A stretch of DNA of 64,000 nt from the NCBI RefSeq assembly GCF_003018255.1, contig NZ_CP027440.1; one strand, written 5' to 3'. The position numbers were made by a program, and so were the translations under genes. The notes below the pieces were generated by a model, which was not told the origin of the DNA, searched no databases, and worked only from the letters and a program-made list of their open reading frames with translations. The stretch is from Escherichia coli (GTDB lineage: Bacteria; Pseudomonadota; Gammaproteobacteria; Enterobacterales; Enterobacteriaceae). Each line of letters opens with the position of its first letter. The stretch's first letter is position 1. Of this stretch, positions 48,948 to 57,112 are shown piece after piece.

Positions 48948-51900
48948 ATGGGGGATATTATGCGTCCCATTCCGTTTGAGGAACTTTTGACGCGCATATT
49001 TGATGAATACCAACAACAACGCTCAATCTTTGGTATTCCCGAGCAACAGTTTTACTCACCCGTAAAAGGTAAAACTGTTAGCGTCTTCGGTGAAACCTGT
49101 GCCACTCCCGTCGGCCCTGCCGCTGGCCCGCACACGCAGCTCGCGCAAAATATTGTCACTTCCTGGCTGACTGGCGGACGCTTCATCGAACTAAAAACCG
49201 TCCAAATTCTTGACCGCCTGGAGCTGGAAAAGCCCTGTATCGATGCCGAAGACGAGTGCTTTAACACCGAATGGTCTACCGAATTTACCCTGCTTAAAGC
49301 CTGGGATGAATACCTCAAAGCCTGGTTTGCCCTGCACCTTCTCGAAGCGATGTTCCAGCCTTCTGATTCCTGTAAATCGTTCATCTTTAATATGAGCGTC
49401 GGTTACAACCTCGAAGGTATTAAGCAACCGCCGATGCAGCAGTTCATCGACAATATGATGGACGCATCTGACCATCCGAAATTCGCTCAATACCGCGATG
49501 CACTTAATAAGCTACTCCAGGATGACGCATTTTTAGCCCGCCACGGCTTACAGGAAAAACGCGAAAGCTTGCAAGCCTTACCCGCTCGCATCCCCACCAG
49601 CATGGTACAAGGGGTTACCCTCTCCACCATGCACGGCTGTCCTCCGCATGAAATCGAAGCCATTTGCCGCTACATGCTGGAAGAAAAAGGGCTCAACACC
49701 TTTGTGAAACTCAACCCGACCTTACTGGGGTACGCGCGTGTTCGTGAGATCCTCGATGTCTGCGGTTTCGGTTACATCGGCTTAAAAGAAGAGTCATTTG
49801 ATCACGACCTCAAGCTGACGCAAGCACTGGAAATGCTGGAACGCCTGATGGCACTGGCAAAAGAAAAATCACTCGGCTTTGGCGTAAAACTGACTAACAC
49901 TCTCGGCACCATTAATAACAAAGGCGCACTGCCCGGTGAAGAGATGTATATGTCAGGCCGTGCGCTGTTCCCGCTCTCCATCAACGTTGCAGCAGTTCTC
50001 TCTCGCGCCTTTGACGGCAAACTGCCCATTTCTTATTCCGGTGGTGCCAGTCAGCTGACTATCCGCGATATTTTTGATACTGGTATTCGCCCTATTACTA
50101 TGGCAACCGACCTGCTGAAACCTGGCGGCTATCTGCGCTTAAGTGCCTGCATGCGCGAGCTGGAAGGCTCAGATGCCTGGGAGCTTAACCACGTTGACGT
50201 CGAACGACTGAACAGACTGGCAGCAGACGCGTTAACCATGGAATACACCCAGAAACACTGGAAGCCAGAAGAGCGTATTGAAGTGGCTGAAGACCTGCCG
50301 CTGACCGATTGCTACGTTGCCCCCTGTGTTACTGCCTGCGCTATCAAGCAAGATATTCCGGAATACATCCGTCTGCTTGGCGAACACCGCTATGCCGACG
50401 CGCTGGAACTCATCTATCAACGCAACGCCCTGCCCGCCATTACCGGTCATATTTGCGATCACCAGTGCCAATACAACTGTACCCGCCTGGATTACGACAG
50501 TGCGCTGAATATCCGCGAACTGAAAAAAGTCGCGCTGGAAAAAGGTTGGGATGAATATAAGCAACGCTGGCACAAACCAGCCGGTTCTGGTTCACGCCAT
50601 CCGGTTGCCGTGATTGGTGCAGGTCCGGCGGGTCTGGCAGCAGGTTACTTCCTTGCCAGAGCGGGCCATCCGGTTACGCTGTTTGAACGCGAAGCCAATG
50701 CGGGCGGCGTGGTGAAAAATATCATTCCTCAGTTCCGTATTCCTGCAGAGTTAATTCAGCACGATATCGATTTTGTTGCCGCTCACGGCGTAAAATTTGA
50801 GTATGGCTGCTCACCGGATCTGACCGTTGAACAGTTAAAAAATCAGGGCTTCCACTATGTTCTGATTGCCACCGGCACTGATAAAAATAGCGGTGTGAAA
50901 CTGGCGGGCGACAACCAAAATGTCTGGAAATCACTCCCCTTCCTGCGTGAATACAACAAGGGCACAGCGCTCAAGCTGGGCAAACATGTGGTCGTTGTCG
51001 GGGCGGGTAACACGGCAATGGACTGCGCTCGTGCGGCGTTACGCGTTCCAGGCGTAGAAAAAGCAACGGTCGTTTACCGTCGTTCACTGCAAGAGATGCC
51101 AGCATGGCGCGAAGAGTATGAAGAAGCGTTGCACGACGGCGTGGAGTTCCGTTTCCTGAATAATCCGGAACGTTTCGATGCTGATGGCACCTTAACCTTG
51201 CGCGTTATGTCGCTTGGCGAACCTGATGAGAAAGGTCGTCGCCGTCCGGTTGAAACCAACGAAACAGTAACACTGCATGTAGACAGCCTGATCACCGCCA
51301 TTGGTGAACAGCAGGATACTGAAGCCCTGAATGCGATGGGCGTGCCGCTGGACAAAAACGGCTGGCCAGACGTCGACCATAATGGCGAAACGCGTCTGAG
51401 TGACGTCTTTATGATCGGCGACGTACAGCGCGGACCATCCTCCATTGTCGCTGCTGTCGGAACCGCGCGTCGGGCGACCGATGCCATCCTGAGTCGGGAA
51501 AATATCCGTTCCCACCAGAACGATAAATACTGGAATAACGTCAATCCGGCGGAAATCTATCAACGTAAAGGCGATATCTCTGTCACTCTGGTGAACAGTG
51601 ACGATCGTGACGCGTTTGTCGCGCAGGAAGCCGCTCGCTGCCTTGAATGTAACTACGTTTGCAGCAAGTGTGTGGATGTCTGCCCGAACCGCGCCAACGT
51701 ATCCATTGCGGTCCCAGGCTTCCAGAACCGTTTCCAGACGCTGCATCTCGACGCCTACTGCAACGAATGCGGCAACTGCGCCCAATTCTGCCCGTGGAAC
51801 GGTAAACCGTACAAAGACAAAATCACCGTCTTCAGCCTGTCGCAAGACTTTGATAACAGCAGCAACCCAGGCTTCCTTGTGGAAGATTGCCGGGTACGCG

Positions 51901-52046
51901 TACGTCTGAATAACCAAAGCTGGGTGTTAAACATCGACAGCGAAGGTCAGTTCAACAACGTACCACCGGAGCTGAACGATATGTGCCGCATCATTAGCCA
52001 TGTCCACCAGCATCATCATTATCTGCTGGGCCGTGTGGAGGTGTAA
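48948..52046 (+). CDS. ygfK: Large Fe-S flavoprotein oxidoreductase (glutamate-synthase-small-subunit / PreT-like)
   Basis: 1032 aa; dinucleotide-binding motif [21 protein letters not shown] and C-terminal 4Fe-4S motifs CLECNYVCSKCVDVCPN and CNECGNCAQFCPW. Confidence 0.9.
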   Translation: MGDIMRPIPFEELLTRIFDEYQQQRSIFGIPEQQFYSPVKGKTVSVFGETCATPVGPAAGPHTQLAQNIVTSWLTGGRFIELKTVQILDRLELEKPCIDAEDECFNTEWSTEFTLLKAWDEYLKAWFALHLLEAMFQPSDSCKSFIFNMSVGYNLEGIKQPPMQQFIDNMMDASDHPKFAQYRDALNKLLQDDAFLARHGLQEKRESLQALPARIPTSMVQGVTLSTMHGCPPHEIEAICRYMLEEKGLNTFVKLNPTLLGYARVREILDVCGFGYIGLKEESFDHDLKLTQALEMLERLMALAKEKSLGFGVKLTNTLGTINNKGALPGEEMYMSGRALFPLSINVAAVLSRAFDGKLPISYSGGASQLTIRDIFDTGIRPITMATDLLKPGGYLRLSACMRELEGSDAWELNHVDVERLNRLAADALTMEYTQKHWKPEERIEVAEDLPLTDCYVAPCVTACAIKQDIPEYIRLLGEHRYADALELIYQRNALPAITGHICDHQCQYNCTRLDYDSALNIRELKKVALEKGWDEYKQRWHKPAGSGSRHPVAVIGAGPAGLAAGYFLARAGHPVTLFEREANAGGVVKNIIPQFRIPAELIQHDIDFVAAHGVKFEYGCSPDLTVEQLKNQGFHYVLIATGTDKNSGVKLAGDNQNVWKSLPFLREYNKGTALKLGKHVVVVGAGNTAMDCARAALRVPGVEKATVVYRRSLQEMPAWREEYEEALHDGVEFRFLNNPERFDADGTLTLRVMSLGEPDEKGRRRPVETNETVTLHVDSLITAIGEQQDTEALNAMGVPLDKNGWPDVDHNGETRLSDVFMIGDVQRGPSSIVAAVGTARRATDAILSRENIRSHQNDKYWNNVNPAEIYQRKGDISVTLVNSDDRDAFVAQEAARCLECNYVCSKCVDVCPNRANVSIAVPGFQNRFQTLHLDAYCNECGNCAQFCPWNGKPYKDKITVFSLSQDFDNSSNPGFLVEDCRVRVRLNNQSWVLNIDSEGQFNNVPPELNDMCRIISHVHQHHHYLLGRVEV

Positions 52047-52048
52047 TC

Positions 52049-57074: not shown

Positions 57075-57083
57075 GTAATAAAT

Positions 57084-57112
57084 GGCCGCTTCGGCGGCCT
57101 GTTTCTCTGTTT
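57084..57112 (+). terminator. Rho-independent terminator after xdhD
   Basis: Hairpin GGCCGC-ttcg-GCGGCC followed by TGTTTCTCTGTTT. Confidence 0.75.

What the first reader, a model, noticed from the sequence alone, without database searches (positions are those of the whole stretch)
48948..57112. ygfK-ssnA-ygfM-xdhD form one translationally coupled operon ending at a strong terminator
The ygfK stop and ssnA start are 2 nt apart, ygfM and xdhD overlap by 4 nt (ATGA), and a canonical terminator follows xdhD. The co-translated set (Fe-S flavoprotein, amidohydrolase, FAD subunit, Mo subunit) looks like one enzyme complex in which YgfK could supply the Fe-S centres that XdhD lacks.
Basis: partly seen in the sequence, partly recalled or inferred. 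Interest (0 to 1): 0.55.

Follow-up and report, generated by a model that had tools for sequence, protein, structure and literature searches.

The report
Known urate-breakdown operon, two coupled gene pairs
This is the long-known E. coli ygfK-ssnA-ygfM-xdhD operon, now shown to start anaerobic uric-acid breakdown; it encodes two separate enzyme modules rather than one complex, although XdhD really has lost all its iron-sulfur ligands, which nobody has explained.

Summary
The junctions are as described: a 2-nt ygfK/ssnA gap, an ATGA ygfM/xdhD overlap, and a GC hairpin plus U-rich tail after xdhD. So there are two coupled pairs, not four coupled genes.

The operon is old knowledge ("ygfKLMN"). 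Its sigma-54 promoter and PurR box are the sites mapped in K-12. Work from 2025 assigns sequential steps: XdhD-YgfM reduces urate to 2,8-dioxopurine, YgfK reduces that, and SsnA opens the ring.

In 80 genomes, ygfM-xdhD and ygfK-ssnA each stay tightly joined. The pairs, however, are often separated, reordered or given their own sigma-54 promoter.

The "one complex, YgfK supplies Fe-S" idea is the 2002 selenate-reductase model. It is contradicted by autonomous YgfK activity, by XdhD co-purifying only with a ~30 kDa protein, and by ygfK mutants accumulating 2,8-dioxopurine.

All eight [2Fe-2S] cysteines are missing from XdhD and from all 77 orthologs, despite the "Mo/Fe-S-binding" name. The papers I read do not mention this, and the electron route to molybdenum is unexplained.

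The parts
48634..48649 (+). PurR box AGTTAAACGATTGCGT, just after the mocA stop
   Evidence: Single exact match in the window, with 0 expected by chance. It is the same 16-mer as the PurR ChIP-chip site listed for 'ygfK-ssnA' in K-12 (PMC3159470).
48860..48875 (+). Sigma-54 promoter, -24 GG / -12 GC element TGGTGCGATTGTTGCT. The inferred transcription start is near 48886, giving a ~62-nt leader.
   Evidence: Found. It is identical to sigma-54 ChIP-seq site OS31 (GTGGTGCGATTGTTGCT, 62 nt from ygfK) in PMC4591121. A TGG-N9-TGC element lies 78-139 nt upstream of ygfK in most gammaproteobacterial loci.
48948..52046 (+). ygfK: 2,8-dioxopurine reductase, with a dihydropyrimidine-dehydrogenase-like layout. 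It has an N-terminal FMN-type barrel, a GltD-like Fe-S/FAD/NAD(P)H module and a C-terminal ferredoxin-like dicluster.
   Evidence: TIGR03315 scores 1779 bits against a cutoff of 835. Pfam finds Fer4_20 at 453-532 and Pyr_redox_2 at 552-839. PDB sequence hits are NfnA, GltD and DPD over residues 436-850. The model of residues 1-461 (pTM 0.80) matches DHODH and DPD barrels best. Cys groups lie at 455/460/464, 503/507/511, 898-912 and 938-948. Function comes from PMC12507026 and 10.1101/2025.04.24.650524.
52037..52051 (+). ygfK/ssnA coupling junction: GGAGG (52037-52041), TAA (52044-52046), 2 nt, ATG (52049-52051)
   Evidence: Read directly. The local RNA is unstructured (z = +1.8). The gap is 2-3 nt in 31 of 52 loci.
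52049..53377 (+). ssnA: amidohydrolase that opens the ring of reduced 2,8-dioxopurine
   Evidence: TIGR03314 scores 737 bits and NF005540 706 bits, both above cutoff. Coupled YgfK+SsnA assay in PMC12507026.
53386..53412 (+). Intercistronic hairpin: 12 bp, loop UCA, no U tract. It separates the ygfK-ssnA pair from the ygfM-xdhD pair.
   Evidence: Free energy -20.2 kcal/mol, z = -4.6. Three of 12 pairs change on both sides among 4 distinct Escherichia/Citrobacter sequences, and 95.8% of cells are paired. Stems of 8 bp or more occur in 34 of 39 distinct spacers from other genera, with unrelated sequences and never a U tail. No Rfam match.
53428..54207 (+). ygfM: FAD-binding subunit that partners XdhD. 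It has its own Shine-Dalgarno, AAGGAAAG, at 53417-53424.
   Evidence: TIGR03312 scores 486 bits against a cutoff of 241. The GG and TxGG FAD motifs are conserved and there is no conserved Cys motif. A ~30 kDa protein co-purifies with XdhD (PMC12507026). AlphaFold3 ipTM of 0.94 is reported in PMC12990295.
54204..54207 (+). ATGA start/stop overlap of ygfM and xdhD, with GGAGG at 54192-54196
   Evidence: Read directly. The gap is -4 to +3 nt in 75 of 76 loci.
54204..57074 (+). xdhD: molybdenum subunit, a urate 6-dehydroxylase that makes 2,8-dioxopurine
   Evidence: TIGR03313 scores 2117 bits against a cutoff of 1102. Pfam finds Ald_Xan_dh_C, MoCoBD_1, MoCoBD_2 and Fer2_2. Function comes from PMC12507026.
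54204..54683 (+). Pseudo-[2Fe-2S] domain of XdhD (residues 1-160). The fold is kept but all eight cysteine ligands are replaced.
   Evidence: No Cys occurs in residues 1-188. The alignment to NdhS 3hrd_D (E 1.5e-17) shows C to D/F/S/S, QCGYC to QSGYN, and CRC to SRD. All 77 orthologs are Cys-less with a conserved D-A-D-S-S-N-x-D pattern. S33 V34 R35 S37 D38 D39 G42 G45 S46 D47 are invariant down to 50% identity.
57084..57112 (+). Intrinsic terminator: GGCCGC-UUCG-GCGGCC followed by UGUUUCUCUGUUU
   Evidence: -13.3 kcal/mol. It is present in Escherichia relatives and in 39 of 77 lineages overall by a simple rule, so it is not universal.

Best explanation
The region is the E. coli ygfK-ssnA-ygfM-xdhD (ygfKLMN) operon of the YgeV/sigma-54 purine-catabolic regulon.

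Transcription starts at a sigma-54 promoter about 62 nt upstream of ygfK and ends, in Escherichia, at a hairpin/U-tract terminator after xdhD.

The operon is built from two evolutionarily independent two-gene modules:
- ygfK+ssnA have a 2-nt gap, with the Shine-Dalgarno inside ygfK. YgfK is a dihydropyrimidine-dehydrogenase-like reductase. SsnA is the amidohydrolase that pulls YgfK's unfavourable reaction forward.
- ygfM+xdhD share an ATGA overlap. They encode the FAD and Mo subunits of one enzyme.

The pathway order is XdhD-YgfM (urate to 2,8-dioxopurine), then YgfK (reduction), then SsnA (ring opening).

The modules are joined by a 50-nt spacer with a conserved hairpin that has no U tract. 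I infer that this hairpin sets different mRNA stability or partial attenuation for the two halves, rather than terminating transcription fully.

What is shown and what is inferred:
- Shown here: anatomy, family membership, conservation and modularity.
- Shown in the literature: enzyme activities, sigma-54 and PurR binding.
- Inferred: co-transcription through the hairpin, translational coupling, and the hairpin's role.
For: - Anatomy.
- Identity to annotated E. coli: 5168 genomes cover at least 80% of the region at 95-99% identity, with annotation.
- All four proteins exceed the NCBIfam equivalog cutoffs.
- The sigma-54 motif is identical to a ChIP-seq site and is conserved upstream of ygfK.
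- There is no sigma-54 motif within 300 nt upstream of ygfM. There is no sigma-70-like site on the + strand between 50101 and 54637, and the total count of such sites is at chance level.
- Enzyme functions: PMC12507026 and 10.1101/2025.04.24.650524.
- Modularity: 41 loci are contiguous, 16 have 0.45-6 kb between the pairs (in most, other genes), 5 have the pairs in reverse order and 14 have ygfM-xdhD without ssnA nearby.
- Detached ygfM has its own sigma-54 motif in Kluyvera, Photobacterium, Shewanella, Ferrimonas and Endozoicomonas.
- Raoultella planticola and Kluyvera cryocrescens have mocA-ygfK-ssnA followed directly by ygfS-ygfT.
- Hairpin conservation.
- The YgfK N-terminal domain matches DHODH/DPD barrels.
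Against: - Nobody has mapped the transcript. A K-12 PurR study lists the unit as 'ygfK-ssnA' only.
- Li et al. say they expressed xdhD from 'its native promoter' on a plasmid. This could mean there is a promoter inside or after ssnA. Their supplement did not settle what was cloned.
- The hairpin could terminate part or most of transcription despite lacking a U tract.
- The E. coli ygfK-mutant metabolite data are in an extended-data figure that I could not see.
Confidence: 0.85

Rival explanations
1. This is the first reader's model, which is also the Bebien 2002 selenate-reductase model. YgfK, YgfM and XdhD, possibly with SsnA, form one molybdoenzyme. In it, YgfK's [4Fe-4S] clusters wire electrons to a Mo subunit that has lost its own clusters.
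For: - XdhD has none of the eight Fe-S cysteines, in this window and in all 77 orthologs.
- YgfM has no compensating Cys motif.
- YgfK carries Cys groups sufficient for up to four [4Fe-4S] clusters.
- The genes lie in one cluster in most genomes.
- ygfK deletion abolishes selenate reduction, as reported second-hand in PMC10143001.
- The subunit names in PMC2276186 follow this model.
Against: - ygfK mutants accumulate 2,8-dioxopurine, which is XdhD's product.
- Tagged XdhD brings down only a ~30 kDa protein and works with NADH and no added YgfK.
- YgfK is a complete DPD-like enzyme with its own substrate barrel and is active alone with NADPH.
- C. sporogenes has YgfK alongside a Fe-S-containing XdhAC.
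- The pairs are separated, reordered or separately promoted in at least 35 of 76 loci.
- A hairpin-bearing spacer lies exactly between the two pairs.
Confidence: 0.07
2. There are two transcription units. ygfK-ssnA ends at the 53386-53412 hairpin, and ygfM-xdhD is driven by an unrecognised internal promoter.
For: - The unit is listed as 'ygfK-ssnA' in PMC3159470.
- A strong conserved hairpin sits at the boundary.
- The pairs are separate units in other genera, each with its own sigma-54 motif.
- Li et al. mention a 'native promoter' for xdhD.
Against: - No U tract follows the hairpin in any of 39 lineages.
- In the window there is no sigma-54 motif in the 300 nt before ygfM and no sigma-70-like site between 50101 and 54637.
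- Only 15 nt lie between the hairpin and the ygfM start.
- All four genes appear together in the YgeV iModulon list.
- The neighbouring ygeW-dpaL-ygeY-hyuA genes have similar spacer hairpins.
Confidence: 0.12

Closest known systems
E. coli K-12 ygfK-ssnA-ygfM-xdhD (ygfKLMN) operon and the reductive urate / 2,8-dioxopurine pathway (PMC12507026; 10.1101/2025.04.24.650524)
   Same: Same genes, order and junctions, and the same sigma-54 and PurR sites. DNA identity to 5168 E. coli genomes is 95-99%.
   Different: Nothing of substance. The window is an E. coli lineage about 1-1.5% diverged from most sequenced strains, with a best match of 99.1%.
Clostridium sporogenes DOPDH (XdhAC) plus DOPOR (YgfK)
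   Same: Same two reactions, urate to 2,8-dioxopurine and then to its reduced form. YgfK and SsnA orthologs are present.
   Different: XdhAC keeps its Fe-S domains, has no FAD subunit, and uses methyl viologen rather than NAD(P)H. XdhD has no Fe-S ligands but has the FAD subunit YgfM.
Canonical xanthine dehydrogenases (E. coli XdhABC, Rhodobacter capsulatus XDH 1JRO, bovine XOR) and nicotinate dehydrogenase NdhS/NdhL
   Same: Moco domains, an a/b-hammerhead domain, an FAD subunit of the FAD_binding_5 type, and an N-terminal domain homologous to the 2x[2Fe-2S] subunit.
   Different: All eight cluster ligands are absent. The enzyme runs in the reductive direction and acts at C6.
Dihydropyrimidine dehydrogenase (pig DPD / PydA), the comparison for YgfK
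   Same: An FMN-type barrel, a GltD-like FAD/NAD(P)H module and Cys groups for up to four [4Fe-4S] clusters. It reduces a ring C=C bond ahead of an amidohydrolase.
   Different: The domain order is permuted, with the barrel first. The barrel match is only at fold level (13-15% identity, TM 0.4-0.55). The substrate is a purine.
Bebien 2002 'selenate reductase YgfK/YgfM/YgfN' model (TIGR03312/03313/03315 names)
   Different: Selenate neither is required for nor stimulates YgfK. The proteins have since been assigned separate steps.

Membership tests
Operon (single transcription unit) | One promoter upstream of the first gene | tested here: met
   The sigma-54 -24/-12 element at 48860-48875 is identical to ChIP-seq site OS31 and is conserved across genera.
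Operon (single transcription unit) | No internal promoter or terminator between the genes | tested here: inconclusive
   No promoter-like motif lies before ygfM. However, a -20 kcal/mol hairpin without a U tract lies in the ssnA-ygfM spacer.
Operon (single transcription unit) | A single mRNA spanning all the genes | not testable with these tools
   This needs RT-PCR or long-read RNA-seq. The literature only asserts an operon, or lists ygfK-ssnA alone.
Translational coupling | The downstream start is within a few nt of the upstream stop, with the Shine-Dalgarno inside the upstream ORF | tested here: met
   Met for ygfK/ssnA (2 nt, GGAGG at 52037-52041) and for ygfM/xdhD (ATGA, GGAGG at 54192-54196). 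Both are conserved.
Translational coupling | The same feature at the ssnA/ygfM junction | tested here: not met
   The gap is 50 nt with a hairpin and a separate Shine-Dalgarno. It is never below 27 nt in 41 loci.
Intrinsic terminator | GC-rich stem-loop followed by a U tract | tested here: met
   At 57084-57112 there is a 6-bp all-GC stem, a UUCG loop and 5 U in the next 9 nt. The U tract is interrupted.
Xanthine oxidase / molybdenum hydroxylase family (XdhD) | Moco-binding domains and the a/b hammerhead domain | tested here: met
   MoCoBD_1 E 3.8e-72, MoCoBD_2 E 3.9e-68 and Ald_Xan_dh_C E 1.9e-30. TIGR03313 scores 2117 bits.
Xanthine oxidase / molybdenum hydroxylase family (XdhD) | Two [2Fe-2S] clusters held by eight cysteines | tested here: not met
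   Zero of the eight ligand positions are Cys in the window and in 77 orthologs.
Xanthine oxidase / molybdenum hydroxylase family (XdhD) | FAD-binding subunit or domain | tested here: met
   YgfM scores 486 bits on TIGR03312. Its FAD motifs are conserved and it is always adjacent to xdhD.
Selenium-dependent molybdenum hydroxylase | Labile selenium cofactor, with yqeB/yqeC/selD dependence | not testable with these tools
   yqeB, yqeC and mocA lie immediately upstream. Selenium dependence has been shown only for C. sporogenes XdhAC.
Dihydropyrimidine-dehydrogenase-like reductase (YgfK) | GltD/DPD-type Fe-S plus FAD/NAD(P)H module | tested here: met
   Fer4_20 E 3.3e-16 and Pyr_redox_2 E 2.9e-42. 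PDB hits include NfnA, GltD and DPD.
Dihydropyrimidine-dehydrogenase-like reductase (YgfK) | FMN/substrate TIM barrel | tested here: met
   In the model of residues 1-461 (pLDDT 76.7, pTM 0.80), the best Foldseek hits are DHODH and DPD (E about 1e-5, TM 0.4-0.55). This is a fold-level match only, with no Pfam hit.
Dihydropyrimidine-dehydrogenase-like reductase (YgfK) | C-terminal 2x[4Fe-4S] ferredoxin-like domain | tested here: met
   Cys groups at 898/901/905/908/912 and 938/941/944/948. Pfam Fer4 hits are weak, at E 0.002-0.009.
Single YgfK-YgfM-XdhD enzyme complex (selenate-reductase model) | Obligate co-occurrence and co-expression of the three genes | tested here: not met
   The pairs are separated or reordered in 21 loci, and ygfK-ssnA occurs as a stand-alone pair in Raoultella and Kluyvera cryocrescens.
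Single YgfK-YgfM-XdhD enzyme complex (selenate-reductase model) | Physical association, and dependence of the XdhD reaction on YgfK | not testable with these tools
   The literature argues against it.

The most novel reading that the evidence does not exclude
XdhD-YgfM, and its whole clade in Gammaproteobacteria, Spirochaetes and Desulfobacula-type genomes, may be a naturally iron-sulfur-free member of the xanthine-oxidase family.

It keeps the FAD subunit and a strongly conserved 'pseudo-ferredoxin' domain. The canonical FAD to [2Fe-2S] to [2Fe-2S] to Moco wire therefore cannot exist.

If so, one of three things must hold:
- Electrons reach Mo by an undescribed route. Candidates are another redox partner such as YgfT/YgfS/AegA of the formate-dependent system, or YgfK transiently.
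- The conserved D/S/N residues hold a different cofactor.
- Both half-reactions occur at the Mo site.

Relatives that keep eight cysteines or four mark the steps of the loss.
Probability: 0.35. Interest if true: 0.7.

Novelty: already known. Interest (0 to 1): 0.35.

Why it matters
The operon encodes the entry steps of the gut-bacterial pathway that removes uric acid. This is relevant to gout and to engineered uricolytic probiotics.

The operon itself adds nothing new. Three points from this check are useful:

- **Naming.** The 'selenate reductase subunit' and 'Mo/Fe-S-binding subunit' names should not be read as evidence for a three-subunit enzyme or for Fe-S clusters in XdhD.
- **Expression.** The operon is a fusion of two portable modules with a conserved hairpin between them. 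This matters for anyone re-engineering expression, because the ratio of YgfK/SsnA to YgfM/XdhD may be set there.
- **Mechanism.** The first enzyme of the pathway in E. coli has an FAD subunit but no clusters to connect it to molybdenum. This is an open mechanistic question that the 2025 papers did not raise.

Tried and rejected
- **Rfam.** A scan of 48000-57700 at E up to 1 gave no family for the leader, spacer hairpin or terminator.
- **Internal promoters.** There is no sigma-70-like site on the + strand between 50101 and 54637. The region total of 11 matches the 9.6 expected by chance. No sigma-54 motif lies within 300 nt of ygfM.
- **A compensating Fe-S site in YgfM.** Only two Cys positions are conserved (161 and 251), which is not a cluster motif.
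- **Gene context of the 50%-identity relatives (P0121, P0124, P0126).** The contigs were 2-4 kb, too short to show ygfK.
- **'Kluyvera lacks ygfK', as a natural test.** Rejected. Kluyvera species do have YgfK at 80% identity, at another locus.
- **Li et al. supplement.** I looked for what 'native promoter' of xdhD means. The primers for the pSC101 construct were not in the parts I read.
- **Prior notice of the missing cysteines.** A literature search turned up no paper saying so. This is absence of evidence within an open-access library only; Bebien 2002 and Xi 2000 were not readable.
- **The hairpin as a minus-strand terminator.** The scan ranks it top on the minus strand, but there is no minus-strand gene to terminate, so I did not adopt this reading.

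
Full report
**What is there**

The window between 48948 and 57112 holds four + strand ORFs:
- 48948-52046 (1032 aa)
- 52049-53377 (442 aa)
- 53428-54207 (259 aa)
- 54204-57074 (956 aa)

Megablast finds the 8.2-kb stretch in 5184 of 5426 complete E. coli genomes at 95-99% identity (best 99.1%). There it is annotated ygfK, ssnA, ygfM and xdhD. All four proteins exceed the curated NCBIfam cutoffs for TIGR03315, TIGR03314, TIGR03312 and TIGR03313.

The neighbours in the annotated record are xdhC (xdhA and xdhB lie further upstream in the window), ygeV, ygeW-dpaL-ygeY-hyuA-arcC, yqeB-yqeC and mocA upstream, and xanQ-guaD-ghxQ, ygfS-ygfT and uacT downstream. This is the E. coli purine/urate catabolic island.

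**Checking the observation**

- ygfK ends TAA at 52044-52046 and ssnA starts ATG at 52049. A GGAGG seven nucleotides upstream lies inside ygfK.
- ygfM and xdhD share ATGA at 54204-54207, with GGAGG at 54192-54196.
- Nine nucleotides after the xdhD stop comes GGCCGC-UUCG-GCGGCC, then UGUUUCUCUGUUU. Its free energy is -13.3 kcal/mol.

ssnA and ygfM are 50 nt apart. The spacer holds a perfect 12-bp hairpin at 53386-53412 (-20.2 kcal/mol, z = -4.6). It has no U tract and is followed by ygfM's own Shine-Dalgarno. So there are two coupled pairs, not a fully coupled set of four.

Tiny gaps and 4-nt overlaps are ordinary. xdhB/xdhC in the same window also overlap by 4 nt. Their conservation is what carries information, as shown below.

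**Promoter and regulation**

The 321-nt region upstream of ygfK has no sigma-70-like site on the + strand. It does contain TGGTGCGATTGTTGCT at 48860-48875. This is the exact motif of sigma-54 ChIP-seq site OS31, assigned to ygfK, 62 nt from the gene, in K-12 (PMC4591121).

The 16-mer at 48634-48649 is the PurR ChIP-chip site for 'ygfK-ssnA' (PMC3159470). A genomic SELEX study lists ygfK among CRP targets. All four genes are listed in the YgeV iModulon.

A TGG-N9-TGC element sits 78-139 nt upstream of ygfK in nearly all Enterobacterales, Aeromonas and many Vibrionaceae. In the window, nothing comparable precedes ygfM.

**What the genes do (literature)**

Two 2025 studies solved the pathway.

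*Li et al. (PMC12507026)*
[quoted passage not shown] With NADH it converts urate to 2,8-dioxopurine ('yanthine').
- Reconstituted YgfK plus SsnA and NAD(P)H convert yanthine to ureidomethyl-hydantoin.
- The authors attribute the need for SsnA to unfavourable thermodynamics of the YgfK step.

*The Dodd-lab preprint (10.1101/2025.04.24.650524)*
- YgfK alone reduces 2,8-dioxopurine with NADPH, and selenate is irrelevant.
- ygfK mutants accumulate 2,8-dioxopurine.
- The C. sporogenes counterpart of XdhD (XdhAC) has Fe-S domains and no FAD subunit. It uses methyl viologen, not NAD(P)H.

A commentary reports an AlphaFold3 ipTM of 0.94 for XdhD-YgfM (PMC12990295).

My own checks agree with YgfK being a complete enzyme:
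- It has a GltD/DPD-type Fe-S/FAD module.
- It has Cys groups for up to four [4Fe-4S] clusters.
- The model of its N-terminal 460 residues (pTM 0.80) matches dihydroorotate and dihydropyrimidine dehydrogenase barrels best.

**Comparative anatomy**

A scan of one genome per species returned 80 XdhD loci. They come from Enterobacterales, Aeromonas, Vibrionaceae, Shewanella, Ferrimonas, Endozoicomonas, Spirochaetes and Desulfobacula-type MAGs, at 55-98% identity. I mapped the four genes and their neighbours by tblastn and refined the gene boundaries.

| Junction | Result |
|---|---|
| ygfM-xdhD gap | -4 to +3 nt in 75 of 76 loci |
| ygfK-ssnA gap | 2-3 nt in 31 of 52 loci; 30 nt or less in 49 of 52 |
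| ssnA-ygfM gap | 27-96 nt in the 41 contiguous loci; never shorter |

The link between the pairs is loose:
- 41 loci have the E. coli order.
- 16 have 0.45-6 kb between ssnA and ygfM. In Photobacterium, Shewanella, Aliivibrio and Spirochaetes a three-subunit XDH-like enzyme sits there.
- 5 have ygfM-xdhD upstream of ygfK-ssnA.
- 14 show ygfM-xdhD with no ssnA in range.

In Kluyvera georgiana and K. intermedia, ygfM-xdhD follows xdhABC. In Raoultella planticola and Kluyvera cryocrescens, mocA-ygfK-ssnA is followed directly by ygfS-ygfT. Where ygfM is detached it often has its own sigma-54-type motif 55-124 nt upstream.

The four-gene operon is therefore a lineage-specific joining of two conserved two-gene modules. 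These modules correspond exactly to the biochemical units: a physical Mo-FAD enzyme, and a reductase with its thermodynamic partner.

**The spacer hairpin**

- In 34 of 39 distinct ssnA-ygfM spacers, the fold has a stem of 8 bp or more.
- 21 of the 39 have z below -2 against shuffles, and the median z is -2.9.
- None has a U-rich tail.
- The sequences are unrelated between genera.
- Within Escherichia and Citrobacter, three of the twelve pairs change on both sides while staying paired. This is a small sample.
- Similar hairpins occupy the ygeW-dpaL, dpaL-ygeY and ygeY-hyuA spacers of the same window.
- Rfam has nothing here.

I infer a role in segmental mRNA stability or partial attenuation. 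This would give the two modules different expression levels, and it is untested.

The xdhD terminator is present in Escherichia, Morganella and Vibrionaceae. By a simple rule it is found in only 39 of 77 lineages.

**The Fe-S question**

It is in fact right.

- Residues 1-188 of XdhD contain no cysteine.
- Alignment to solved Fe-S subunits shows every one of the eight ligands replaced. The best match is nicotinate dehydrogenase NdhS, 3hrd_D, at E 1.5e-17.
- All 120 close homologs share the replacement motifs.
- All 77 full-length orthologs from genomes have the pattern D-A-D-S / S-N-x-D.
- The replacement residues are invariant down to 50% identity. The domain is therefore under selection, not decaying.

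Among 50%-cluster representatives:
- the nearest Cys-containing relatives (P0124, P0151; about 50% identity) keep all eight ligands;
- P0126 (39% identity) keeps only the second cluster's four.

P0124 and P0126 each have an upstream FAD-subunit gene. YgfM has conserved FAD motifs but no Cys motif.

From established knowledge of XOR structures, FAD and Mo are too far apart for direct transfer without the two clusters. How NADH-derived electrons reach Mo in XdhD-YgfM is therefore unexplained. None of the papers I read mentions it.

**Does YgfK fill the gap?**

It is also the 2002 selenate-reductase model, which survives in the TIGRFAM names 'Fe-S subunit', 'FAD-binding subunit' and 'Mo-binding subunit' (PMC2276186; PMC2744661; PMC10143001).

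The evidence is against an obligate role:
- ygfK mutants still make 2,8-dioxopurine.
- XdhD preparations work without added YgfK.
- YgfK accompanies Fe-S-containing XdhAC in Clostridium.
- The gene pairs are frequently unlinked.

Caveats:
- The E. coli mutant data are in a figure I could not see.
- E. coli XdhABC can also consume urate.
- XdhD was purified from cells that still had chromosomal ygfK.

A transient electron-donor role is therefore not excluded, but nothing positive supports it.

**Verdict**

The operon is real, ordinary and already known, and its function was established in 2025. The description needs one correction: there are two coupled pairs with a hairpin spacer. The single-complex interpretation is an old model that current data contradict.

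The one item of real interest is the clade-wide absence of Fe-S ligands in XdhD alongside a retained FAD subunit.

Noticed in passing
window 40520-40576, 41774-41830, 43043-43094: The ygeW-dpaL, dpaL-ygeY and ygeY-hyuA spacers (52-57 nt) each hold an 8-9 bp GC-rich hairpin (-15 to -21 kcal/mol, z -1.9 to -3.5). The ygeY-hyuA hairpin is followed by UUUUU. Spacer hairpins look like a general feature of this regulon's operons.
   Followed up: partly
window 39223-39238: TGGCACACTTATTGTT upstream of ygeW is the exact motif of sigma-54 ChIP-seq site OS30 (PMC4591121).
   Followed up: partly
L003 1479-4310 (P0126, GCA_003358065.1): An XdhD relative at 39% identity has lost the four cysteines of the first [2Fe-2S] cluster, the one next to FAD, but keeps the four of the second. 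It still has an overlapping upstream FAD-subunit gene. It may be an intermediate in the loss of the clusters.
   Followed up: partly
L045, L047, L051-L054, L056, L058, L059, L067, L073 (about 3300-8800); L075-L077, L081: In Photobacterium, Shewanella, Aliivibrio and Spirochaete genomes a second, three-subunit XDH-family enzyme lies between ssnA and ygfM. Its Mo subunit is ~24% identical to XdhA, its Fe-S subunit ~40% to XdhC and its FAD subunit ~27% to XdhB. Spirochaetes also have a distant SsnA paralog (~26%) directly upstream of ygfM.
   Followed up: no
L085 10001-16907 (Raoultella planticola); L086 (Kluyvera cryocrescens): ygfK and ssnA overlap by 4 nt and are followed directly by ygfS-ygfT on the opposite strand. 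No ygfM-xdhD-xanQ-guaD-ghxQ is present there. Raoultella instead has a 1071-aa Mo+FAD fusion protein with a separate Fer2_2 subunit about 8 kb away.
   Followed up: partly
P0002: A 1215-aa predicted protein cluster, with 43 member sequences from Logan assemblies, is a YgfM-XdhD fusion at 99% identity. It probably arises from a one-base change at the ATGA overlap or from an assembly error.
   Followed up: no
window 53385-53413, minus strand: Read on the minus strand, the spacer hairpin is the top-ranked terminator-like site in the region, with tail CTGTTATTTA. No minus-strand gene is nearby.
   Followed up: no
window 48948-57112 against E. coli genomes: Only 5 of 5184 genomes match at 99% or above, and the rest at 95-99%. 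The window therefore comes from an E. coli lineage that is sparsely represented among complete genomes. The closest is strain JNE23-011.
   Followed up: no
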